The notes beneath the pieces are model-generated. The model was not told where the DNA came from and did no database searches. It saw only the letters and a program-made list of their open reading frames with translations. From NCBI RefSeq assembly GCF_009914755.1, contig NC_060926.1: a stretch of 64,000 nt of DNA. The stretch is one strand, 5' to 3'. Origin of the DNA: the human T2T-CHM13v2.0 reference genome, Homo sapiens. Numbering within the stretch: position 1 is the stretch's first letter; each line of letters begins with the position of its first letter. A program made the translations under genes and the position numbers. Of the stretch, positions 11,311-18,287 are shown piece after piece.

Positions 11311-11324
11311 CTCCTTAATTTTCT
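11311..11324. repeat. Left TSD of the L1-A insertion, CTCCTTAATTTTCT (right copy 17809-17822)
   Basis: Exact 14-bp direct repeat; the right flank gives TTCT/AA, an L1 endonuclease-type cut site. Confidence 0.9.
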
Positions 11325-11351
11325 TTCTTTTTTTTTTTTTTTTTTTTTTTT

Positions 11352-11772
11352 ACACAGCCTTCTTAATCTACACATATGGCAAGCTAATAATTCCAAAAAA
11401 ATAATTTCTTTCCTTTGTAGCCATTTAAAACTAACAGCTAGAAATATTTCTTCTTCCAATTATTAAAAATAAGCTGTTTCTGAGTCAGTGCTGACTACAT
11501 TTACTGATTGAAGCAGCCAACTCCAAATATACCATCTTTTAGTATTGACACTTAAAATAAAACTTCTCCCCAGAAAAAGAGTTCTATAAATGATGGCTGT
11601 AGAAATAGGCACTGTCCAGGCAGTTGTTTTGTGGAAGTAGTGTTGTTATTTTCTGGTGTTTTCCAAGTCATCTCAGATGGTGCGTGAAAATGAGATGCCA
11701 AAGAAGGCTTAAAAAAGATACCCTGCACCAGCTTCAGAATGTAAGCAAATCTTTCATTCCAGCGCTTAAAAG
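11352..11772 (-). other. 3'-transduced non-L1 segment carried by L1-A
   Basis: Lies between the L1 A16 tail and a second A24 tail (11328-11351); the whole unit is enclosed by the TSD at 11311-11324 and 17809-17822. Confidence 0.85.
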
Positions 11773-11993
11773 TTTTTTTTTTTTTTTTATTATATTCTAA
11801 GTTTTAGGGTACATGTGCACATTGTGCAGGTTAGTTACATATGTATACATGTGCCATGCTGGTGTGCTGCACCCACTAATGTGTCATCTAGCATTAGGTA
11901 TATCTCCCAATGCTATCCCTCCCCCCTCCCCCGACCCCACCACAGTCCCCAGAGTGTGATATTCCCCTTCCTGTGTCCATGTGATCTCATTGT

Positions 11994-15820: not shown

Positions 15821-15883
15821 TATGATGTTAGCTGGTGATTTTGCTCATTAGTTGATGCAGTTTCTTCCTAGTCTCGATGGTCT

Positions 15884-16902
15884 TTACATTTTGGCATGAT
15901 TTTGCAGCGGCTGGTACCGGTTGTTCCTTTCCATGTTTAGCGCTTCCTTCAGGAGCTCTTTTAGGGCAGGCCTGGTGGTGACAAAATCTCTCAGCATTTG
16001 CTTGTCTATAAAGTATTTTATTTCTCCTTCACTTATGAAGCTTAGTTTGGCTGGATATGAAATTCTGGGTTGAAAATTCTTTTCTTTAAGAATGTTGAAT
16101 ATTGGCCCCCACTCTCTTCTGGCTTGTAGGGTTTCTGCCGAGAGATCCGCTGTTAGTCTGATGGGCTTTCCTTTGAGGGTAACCCGACCTTTCTCTCTGG
16201 CTGCCCTTAACATTTTTTCCTTCATTTCAACTTTGGTGAATCTGACAATTATGTGTCTTGGAGTTGCTCTTCTCGAGGAGTATCTTTGTGGCGTTCTCTG
16301 TATTTCCTGAATCTGAACGTTGGCTTGCCTTGCTAGATTGGGGAAGTTCTCCTGGATAATATCCTGCAGAGTGTTTTCCAACTTGGTTCCATTCTCCCCA
16401 TCACTTTCAGAGTGACACCAATGAGACGTAGATTTGGTCTTTTCACATAGTCCCATATTTCTTGGAGGCTTTGCTTGTTTCTTTTTATTCTTTTTTCTCT
16501 AAACTTCCCTTCTCGCTTCATTTCATTCATTTCATCTTCCATTGCTGATACCCTTTCTTCCAGTTGATCGCATCGGCTCCTGAGGCTTCTGCTTTCTTCA
16601 CGTAGTTCTCGAGCCTTGGTTTTCAGCTCCATCAGCTCCTTTAAGCACTTCTCTGTATTGGTTATTCTAGTTATACATTCTTCTAAATTTTTTTCAAAGT
16701 TTTCAACTTCTTTGCCTTTGGTTTGAATGTCCTCCCGTAGCTCAGAGTAATTTGATCGTCTGAAGCCTTCTTCTCTCAGCTCGTCAAAATCATTCTCCAT
16801 CCAGCTTTGTTCTGTTGCTGGTGAGGAACTGCGTTCCTTTGGAGGAGGAGAGGCGCTCTGCGTTTTAGAGTTTCCAGTTTTTCTGTTCTGTTTTTTCCCC
16901 AT
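15884..16902 (-). pseudogene. L1-A ORF1, +2 frameshift near 16411-16415
   Basis: MGKKQNRKTGNSK... and ...PLQNHAKM lie in two different frames; span 1019 nt against 1017. Confidence 0.93.
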
Positions 16903-17808
16903 CTTTGTGGTTTTATCTACTTTTGGTCTTTGATGATGGTGATGTACAGATGGGTTTTCGGTGTAGATGTCCTTTCTGGTTGTTAGTTTTCCTTCTAACA
17001 GACAGGACCCTCAGCTGCAGGTCTGTTGGAATACCCTGCCGTGTGAGGTGTCAGTGTGCCCCTGCTGGGGGGTGCCTCCCAGTTAGGCTGCTCGGGGGTC
17101 AGGGGTCAGGGACCCACTTGAGGAGGCAGTCTGCCCGTTCTCAGATCTCCAGCTGCGTGCTGGGAGAACCACTGCTCTCTTCAAAGCTGTCAGACAGGGA
17201 CACTTAAGTCTGCAGAGGTTACTGCTGTCTTTTTGTTTGTCTGTGCCCTGCCCCCAGAGGTGGAGCCTACAGAGGCAGGCAGGCCTCCTTGAGCTGTGGT
17301 GGGCTGCACCCAGTTGGAGCTTCCCAGCTGCTTTGTTTACCTAAGCAAGCCTGGGCAATGGCGGGCGCCCCTCCCCCAGCCTCGTTGCCGCCTTGCAGTT
17401 TGATCTCAGACTGCTGTGCTAGCAATCAGCGAGATTCCGTGGGCGTAGGACCCTCTGAGCCCGGTGTGGGATATAGTCTCGTGGTGCGCCGTTTCTTAAG
17501 CCGGTCTGAAAAGCGCAATATTCGGGTGGGAGTGACCCGATTTTCCAGGTGCGTCCGTCACCCCTTTCTTTGACTCGGAAAGGGAACTCCCTGACCCCTT
17601 GCGCTTCCCAGGTGAGGCAATGCCTCGCCCTGCTTCGGCTCGCGCACGGTGAGCACACACACTGGCCTGCGCCCACTGTCTGGCACTCCCTAGTGAGATG
17701 AACCCGGTACCTCAGATGGAAATGCAGAAATCACCCGTCTTCTGCGTCGCTCACGCTGGGAGCTGTAGACCGGAGCTGTTCCTATTCAGCCATCTTGGCT
17801 CCTCCCCC
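16903..17808. promoter_or_regulatory. L1 5'UTR: sense promoter (YY1 site CAAGATGGC) and antisense promoter pointing toward exon 9
   Basis: Complete CpG-rich 5'UTR; promoter activity is inferred from established L1HS biology. Confidence 0.8.
17358..17573 (+). CDS. LINE-1 ORF0 (71 aa), intact, antisense to the L1 and sense to DIS3L2
   Basis: gcaATGG start; MAGAPPPASLPPCSLISDCC...TRFSRCVRHPFL*; internal donors after 17463 and 17548. Confidence 0.85.
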   Translation: MAGAPPPASLPPCSLISDCCASNQRDSVGVGPSEPGVGYSLVVRRFLSRSEKRNIRVGVTRFSRCVRHPFL

Positions 17809-18287
17809 CTCCTTAATTTTCTAAAGGTCCAATAACTGGTATGACAGGACTGTTTTAACAACTAATATCAGGTCCATCACTTCACTTGCTTCCTTTTGTC
17901 CTCCCTCCTCCTCACCCTCCCACCACTCCATTCATGGATCTAGTGCTCAGCGCCAGTCTTTGTGGAGGAATTTCTCCATCTCTTGGTACACCTCAGTTCA
18001 TCACTTTGCAGTTTTTCAGAAAGGGCTTATGAGAACTATATTCCCTGAGTTCTTGTATTTAGAAATCTTTATCTTTGAAATCCAGTAACTCCACTAGAAT
18101 ATATTTCATTGGTGATTTTCTGTAATTTTCTTTTCTGAGACTTACCTTTCTGTAAACCTAAATTTTCTTTATTTCAGAAAAGTTTTCTTAATGATCTTGG
18201 AAAATGTTTTCTTTTCTTCATCTCTAGCTCCTTCCTTCAGTTATGCCGAAGGAAGGATCTAGAGATGAGGAATAGAAAATGTTTTCT

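What the first reader, a model, noticed from the sequence alone, without database searches (positions are those of the whole stretch)
11311..17822. L1-A carries a 421-bp 3' transduction with a double poly(A) tail
Seen: no TSD adjoins the L1's own A16 tail. The 14-mer beside the 5' end (CTCCTTAATTTTCT, 17809-17822) recurs at 11311-11324, beyond a second A24 tract and 421 bp of non-L1 DNA (11352-11772). The pre-insertion site TTCT/AA fits the L1 endonuclease. The nearest poly(A)-signal-like hexamer is ATTAAG (11362-11367, minus strand), one base from ATTAAA. Inference: the segment was copied from the flank of the source L1 and tags its parent locus. That parent also shows what L1-A looked like before conversion.
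Basis: partly seen in the sequence, partly recalled or inferred. Interest (0 to 1): 0.7.

Follow-up and report, generated by a model that had tools for sequence, protein, structure and literature searches.

The report
Jumping gene carries chromosome-5 DNA tag
A jumping gene (L1) inside the kidney-tumour gene DIS3L2 carries 421 bases that match the duplicated spinal-muscular-atrophy region of chromosome 5, likely picked up from a parent L1 that is absent at those sites in this genome; such hitch-hiking is an ordinary, well-known event.

Summary
A full-length L1HS (Ta-0 marks; 11789-17808, minus strand), A16, 421 non-L1 bases, A24 and an exact 14-bp TSD form one insertion at a TTCT/AA site. The 421 bases occur at three places on chr5: two copies about 77 kb from the SMN genes (418/421 identical) and one at 22.09 Mb (414/421). 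The chr2 copy sides with the SMN-block copies at 4 of 4 diagnostic bases. But all three donor sites are clean empty sites: no parent L1 and no sibling was found in CHM13, so the parent cannot show the pre-conversion L1-A. The donor breakpoint sits at an endonuclease-like TTTT/GA site, which fits a parent that was once there. Best reading (0.86): an ordinary 3' transduction from a now-absent Ta-0 L1 in a cadherin-pseudogene intron of the SMN block, probably never fixed. Three or four of 20 control Ta loci show the same double-tail anatomy. I found no print record of this event, but the key catalogues were not readable. New member of a known kind; interest 0.27.

The parts
11311..11324 (+). TSD, copy beyond the second poly(A) tail (14 bp)
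   Evidence: exact match to 17809-17822
11325..11351 (-). Second (terminal) poly(A) tail: A24 (11328-11351) plus 3 further bases before the TSD
11352..11772 (-). 421-bp 3' transduced segment from chr5 (418/421 identical to C5:70897785-70898205 and C5:71320967-71321387; 414/421 to C5:22086709-22087129)
11362..11367 (-). Poly(A) signal used for the transduction: ATTAAA in all three donors, ATTAAG here; ends 10 nt before the tail
11773..11788 (-). Internal A16 tract: the tail of the inferred parent L1, absorbing the four A of the donor site
11789..17808 (-). Full-length L1HS 'L1-A', 6,020 bp; Ta triplet ACA at 11880-11882, Ta-0 G/C at 12275/12272; ORF1 frameshifted near 16414, ORF2 stops after 1,055 aa; middle homogenised with L1-B
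17809..17822 (+). TSD, copy at the L1 5' end; followed by AA, giving the TTCT/AA endonuclease site
39397..44188 (-). Neighbouring 5'-truncated older L1 'L1-B' (GAG triplet); context only, not part of the transduction

Best explanation
This is one L1 insertion bounded by an exact 14-bp TSD whose 421-bp tail segment matches the duplicated SMN-region block on chr5, likely copied by 3' read-through from a parent Ta-0 L1 that would once have stood at that donor site, which is empty in all three copies in CHM13. Steps. (1) Inferred: a Ta-0 L1 inserted at a TTTT/GA site in an intron of the cadherin (CDH12-type) pseudogene block about 77 kb upstream of SMN. (2) Inferred from anatomy plus established knowledge: RNA polymerase II passed the L1's own weak poly(A) signal and ended at the first downstream ATTAAA, which is followed by a GT/T-rich element. 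(3) Shown by hallmarks: the 6.4-kb RNA was inserted by target-primed reverse transcription at a TTCT/AA site in a DIS3L2 intron, antisense to the gene. (4) Shown: the chr2 copy has since gained 3 changes and its L1 middle is homogenised with L1-B. (5) Inferred: the parent is gone; my split is never fixed and lost by drift, before or around the recent SMN1/SMN2 duplication (0.6), erased by conversion or recombination between paralogues (0.2), still present in other haplotypes or extra paralogues (0.2).
For: TSD encloses L1 plus segment, none after A16. Segment begins and ends at poly(A) on chr2, but on chr5 lies inside a 9-10 kb old duplication with no tails, fixing the direction chr5 to chr2. 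Donor has the only AATAAA/ATTAAA of the 421 bp 10 nt before the tail, then a GT/T-rich run. 4 of 4 diagnostic bases shared with the 70.90/71.32 Mb copies rather than 22.09 Mb. Donor start is preceded by TC-AAAA, seen at 80 of 13,249 non-A positions of the donor region (0.6%). SMN Tudor exons lie 77,384 and 77,763 bp away; a Pfam cadherin exon lies 3.65 kb past the donor on the same strand. Empty donor sites are a described class (PMC4862182).
Against: The parent itself was not seen: all 3 donors are empty with no remnant, so steps 1, 2 and 5 are inferred. No sibling carries the tag. The AAAA at the donor start is predicted by template switching too; the YY context adds only about 3-fold (80 of 242). 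One genome only; no ape or pangenome data. The age argument is weak: 3/421 (95% CI 0.15-2.1%) against 0.19% between the two 5q copies, P = 0.047, and 2 of the 3 changes are CpG.
Confidence: 0.86

Rival explanations
1. Relay: the 5q13 parent first made a daughter elsewhere carrying the same 421-bp tag, and L1-A came from that daughter, which reused the same ATTAAA. The tag then names the lineage founder, not the direct mother.
For: Multi-step transduction families are published (PMC6425141). A relay using the same signal leaves no extra mark; the 3 odd bases between A24 and the TSD could be a trace.
Against: No other copy of the tag in CHM13; needs two absent elements instead of one; no second foreign segment after A24.
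Confidence: 0.06
2. Template-switch chimera: reverse transcription began on a polyadenylated cadherin-pseudogene intronic RNA and jumped through A-run microhomology to an L1 RNA tail, so no L1 ever stood at 5q13.
For: All donors are empty without remnant. The donor is sense to the cadherin exon and has a usable ATTAAA. AAAA at the junction gives microhomology. The mechanism is recalled, not read here.
Against: Junction falls on an endonuclease-like YY/AAAA context (80 of 242 AAAA sites). 3' transductions are frequent (350 of 5,311 polymorphic L1s in PMC12350158; 3-4 of 20 Ta loci) and empty donors are a described class. Needs an abundant intronic polyadenylated RNA, for which I have no evidence.
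Confidence: 0.05
3. The parent stood in the 22.09 Mb (5p) copy, the presumed original cadherin gene, not in the SMN block.
For: That site is 98% identical and also has the ATTAAA and the same empty site.
Against: 4 of 4 bases that separate 5p from 5q copies are 5q-type on chr2; 5p and 5q differ by 1.9-2.0% over 9.6 kb, far more than the tag's 0.7%. The short L1 320 bp upstream there points away from the segment.
Confidence: 0.02
4. Two separate insertions (an orphan chr5 retrocopy, then an L1 at its 5' end), or an assembly artefact.
For: Two poly(A) tracts.
Against: A second insertion would leave its own TSD around the L1; none exists, while the 14-bp TSD encloses both parts. The chr2 copy has 3 private bases, so it is not a mis-joined chr5 read.
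Confidence: 0.01

Closest known systems
Partnered L1 3' transduction (as defined in Schloissnig 2025, PMC12350158; Tica 2016, PMC4862182)
   Same: L1 + poly(A) + non-L1 segment + second poly(A), all inside one TSD; downstream poly(A) signal in the donor; interchromosomal; length within the published 8-997 bp range (PMC9311842).
   Different: The donor lies in a segmental duplication with three near-identical copies, a setting these pipelines filter out; no source L1 is present in the reference.
Transductions with an empty source locus (class 1 of Tica 2016)
   Same: No donor L1 within 5 kb of the transduced sequence; read as separate segregation of source and offspring.
   Different: Those were polymorphic non-reference events; this one is in the reference and looks older (Ta-0).
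Chr11 lineage-progenitor transduction family (Salvador-Palomeque 2019, PMC6425141)
   Same: Same anatomy; two members (L018, L019) turned up among my control loci, and the script recovered the published TSD of one exactly.
   Different: That family has 14 members and a surviving active progenitor; here there is one member and no progenitor in CHM13.
LINE-1 pair flanking DIS3L2 exon 9 (Perlman syndrome and Wilms tumour deletion; PMC13158626)
   Same: L1-A is one of the two same-strand L1s around the 174-bp exon at 26038-26211.
   Different: The passages I read describe the L1s as recombination substrates and do not mention a transduced tail or its origin; the primary paper (Higashimoto 2013) was not held.

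Membership tests
L1 3' transduction | TSD encloses L1 and the extra segment; none next to the first tail | tested here: met
L1 3' transduction | Two poly(A) tracts with non-L1 DNA between | tested here: met
   A16 and A24 around 421 bp
L1 3' transduction | Segment maps to another locus that lacks the tails | tested here: met
   3 chr5 copies, 98-99%
L1 3' transduction | Poly(A) signal 10-40 nt before the second tail in the donor | tested here: met
   ATTAAA ends 10 nt before the tail in all 3 donors
L1 3' transduction | Endonuclease-type target site | tested here: met
   TTTTCT/AA; degenerate motif per PMC6425141
L1 3' transduction | Source L1 directly upstream of the donor, same orientation (expected, but known to be missing in many cases) | tested here: inconclusive
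   Absent at 3 of 3 donors in CHM13; other haplotypes not available; empty donors are a described class
L1 3' transduction | Orthologous empty allele lacks L1 and segment together | not testable with these tools
L1HS Ta | ACA triplet at about 5929-5931 | tested here: met
   Window 11880-11882; definition from PMC12350158
L1HS Ta-0 | G and C at about 5535 and 5538 | tested here: met
   G 12275, C 12272; G is not shared with L1-B, C is
Intact, retrotransposition-competent L1 | Open ORF1 and ORF2 | tested here: not met
   ORF1 split, ORF2 ends after 1,055 aa; both lesions shared with L1-B
Multi-member transduction family | Two or more offspring with the same tag | tested here: not met
   Only the chr2 copy in CHM13; 3 other exact sharers of a 5' UTR motif are older L1s at 92-97%

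The most novel reading that the evidence does not exclude
The parent is not extinct: a full-length Ta-0 L1 still sits about 77 kb upstream of SMN in some human or archaic haplotypes (or in cadherin-pseudogene paralogues missing from CHM13), hidden from transduction callers that mask duplications. It would mark an SMN haplotype older than the SMN1/SMN2 duplication and give the unconverted ancestor of the L1 that drives recurrent DIS3L2 exon 9 deletion, so that conversion by L1-B could be dated and tied to deletion risk.
Probability: 0.13. Interest if true: 0.55.

Novelty: new member of a known kind. Interest (0 to 1): 0.27.

Why it matters
Mechanistically it is ordinary. Its value is local. It records a vanished L1 in the SMN duplication and gives exact bases to look for it. 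It links two disease loci by ancestry: the L1 next to DIS3L2 exon 9 likely came from the SMA region. There is a practical caveat (inference): the 421 bp are not repeat-masked in the annotation given with the finding, yet are 99% identical to two SMN-block sites, so primers, probes or short reads placed there as 'unique flank' of the exon 9 deletion junction would cross-match chr5.

Tried and rejected
Third 5q cadherin copy (C5:71.59 Mb) as a hiding place for the parent: it begins at an Alu-Alu junction 644 bp past the end of the donor and has no L1-A match in 6.5 kb. Short L1 beside the 22.09 Mb copy as parent: short, inverted, points away, absent from 5q. Sibling search with both ends of the tag: only the 4 known places. 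Sibling search by a 5' UTR motif: 4 exact hits of 270; the 3 others are older L1s; only the first 100 hits were listed. Right-flank search for a homologue that might span the empty site: uninformative; the left flank was not searched. Dating by the tag alone: too wide. Literature searches with nothing on this event; one search returned only numeric noise. Supplement searches were negative but the needed tables were cut or absent, so they carry little weight.

Full report
Observation. On the minus strand the order is TSD (17809-17822), a 6,020-bp L1 from base 1 (17808-11789), A16 (11788-11773), 421 bp of other DNA (11772-11352), A24 (11351-11328), three more bases, and the TSD again (11324-11311). 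The 14-mer occurs exactly twice in the window, against a shuffle mean of 0.07. Nothing after the A16 matches the end of the 5' flank, so L1 and segment came in together. The pre-insertion site reads TTTTCT/AAAGG, a variant of the degenerate endonuclease motif (PMC6425141, passage).

Origin of the segment. A search of the window's genome scored 4 of 4 candidates: the window and three chr5 places, C5:70897785-70898205 (+), C5:71320967-71321387 (-) and C5:22086709-22087129 (-). Seven of 421 columns vary. Four separate the 22.09 Mb copy from the two 5q copies, and chr2 is 5q-type at 4 of 4. Three are private to chr2: two CpG transitions and the change of ATTAAA to ATTAAG. That ATTAAA is the only AATAAA/ATTAAA in the segment's sense strand; it ends 10 nt before the tail and is followed in the donor by A5 and a GT/T-rich run, the usual layout of a poly(A) site (layout from established knowledge). 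On chr5 the segment is embedded in a long duplication: the two 5q copies differ at 19 of 9,814 sites (0.19%), 5q and 5p at 190 of 9,634 and 186 of 9,642 (1.9-2.0%). So the direction is chr5 to chr2 and the donor is the 5q lineage.

What the donor is. SMN Tudor exons map at C5:70820243 (-) and C5:71399150 (+), 77,384 and 77,763 bp from the donors, on the upstream side of each. A cadherin-domain exon (PF00028, E 1.9e-12) lies 3.65 kb past the donor on the same strand, with three 100% copies on 5q and a 99% copy at 22.08 Mb. A review places CDH12 pseudogenes in the 5q13.2 SMA region (PMC12413218, passages). That the 22 Mb copy is CDH12 itself, and the label 5p14, are recalled. The third 5q copy starts at an Alu-Alu junction 644 bp beyond the donor and lacks it.

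The parent is missing. The 251 bp upstream of the donor occur only at the same three places, all read straight through the junction, and about 10 kb upstream of each holds no L1-A-like DNA except a 300-bp match near the 22.09 Mb copy, part of a short inverted L1 pointing away. The junction lies at TC-AAAA, i.e. TTTT/GA on the other strand; 80 of 13,249 non-A positions in 20 kb of donor DNA have such a context, and 242 have AAAA. That fits a parent inserted by the endonuclease; it only weakly excludes template switching. Searches with the first 73 and last 82 bases found no sibling (4 of 4 candidates were the known places), with the tool's caveat that counts are lower bounds. A 28-base 5' UTR motif had 4 exact matches among 270; the other three are older L1s, 92-97% identical.

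The L1. It has ACA and G/C at the positions that define Ta-0 (definitions in PMC12350158 methods). Against six full-length Ta copies (6 of the 20 loci fetched, out of 496 motif matches) its first 1,231 bases differ at 7 sites (0.57%), within the range of the six (0.49-1.22%). In the part overlapping L1-B, 34 columns are shared by A and B against all or most Ta copies, including the ORF1 frameshift and the ORF2 stop; A and B are identical over 1,743 bp. Several shared bases are also found in older L1 fragments, which points to L1-B overwriting L1-A in at least that tract; the reverse is not excluded elsewhere. So conversion is real, but other Ta copies, not the parent, are what show the earlier state.

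Age. The tag differs from its donors by 0.71% (95% CI 0.15-2.1%), against 0.19% between the 5q copies; three or more changes at the lower rate has P = 0.047. A paper gives about 0.3 million years for the SMN duplication (PMC7033609, passage citing Dennis 2017). Ta-0 being human-specific and of the order of 1-3 million years old is recalled. Together this suggests, weakly, that the transduction predates the split or last homogenisation of the two copies, and that the haplotype that duplicated was empty. CpG decay and reverse-transcription errors inflate the chr2 count.

How ordinary. Among the 20 control Ta loci, a simple script placed the TSD after a second A tract in 3 (L017, L018, L024); L019 is a fourth by its published description; 2 of 20 gave no TSD and some calls were spurious. 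L018's TSD equals that of a published transduction family member (PMC6425141, Table 3 passage), a positive control. In 1,019 genomes 466 of 5,311 polymorphic L1s carried a transduction, 350 of them 3' (PMC12350158, passages). Hoyt et al. list 183 top-confidence L1 3' events in CHM13 (bioRxiv 2021.07.12.451456, passages). Empty source loci are a described class; 3 of 6 human calls had a reference L1 upstream (PMC4862182, passages). Pipelines drop events in duplications (PMC9311842; PMC4862182).

Is it in print. Searches gave nothing on this event. That is weak: Szak 2003, Pickeral 2000, Myers 2002, Higashimoto 2013, Ebert 2021 and the journal version of Hoyt were not held (seen only as reference lines or recalled); Hoyt's Table S13 was not visible; Schloissnig's Table 19 was cut and Table 18 partly held; of Logsdon's Tables 31 and 35 only title rows were seen (PMC12350169); the PCAWG source table was cut (PMC7058536). 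PMC6191304 (passages), PMC13192797 (abstract and passages) and PMC4344489 (reference line only) did not name the locus in what I saw. The two L1s flanking exon 9 and the recurrent deletion are known (PMC13158626, passages).

Verdict. A real, textbook 3' transduction (0.86 for the full reading; the rivals share the rest) from the SMN-block cadherin-pseudogene intron, with the parent absent from CHM13. New member of a known kind. Interest 0.27; 0.55 if the parent survives in some SMN haplotypes (probability 0.13).

Noticed in passing
window 11789-17808 and 39397-44188: L1-A and L1-B are homogenised in tracts (34 shared non-Ta columns; 1,743 bp identical); L1-A's frameshift and ORF2 stop are shared with L1-B, and no A-private substitution occurs between L1 positions 2263 and 5533 (interval chosen after the fact). 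Likely conversion from B disabled A.
   Followed up: partly
window 16577 and 44188: Homologous points of the two L1s are 27,611 bp apart, the expected size of an exon 9 deletion in CHM13; the transduced tag would stay on the deletion allele (inference).
   Followed up: partly
L004:2233-2582 (C5 about 22087.4-22087.8 kb): A short 5'-inverted older L1 in an A run, present in the 22.09 Mb copy and absent from both 5q copies.
   Followed up: partly
L029:3122 (C5:71586621): A third 5q cadherin-pseudogene copy begins at an Alu-Alu junction, an Alu-mediated duplication edge.
   Followed up: partly
L017, L018, L019, L024 (chr1 Ta loci): Further double-tail L1s; L018 and L019 match members of a published chr11-derived transduction family; L017 and L024 were not traced.
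   Followed up: partly
window 17788: C-to-T change at L1 base 21, at the edge of the YY1 site near the 5' end (site recalled); effect unknown.
   Followed up: no
window 39330-39360 and 44189-44220: L1-B sits inside an Alu, with a long duplication of the Alu's middle A-rich region on both sides.
   Followed up: no
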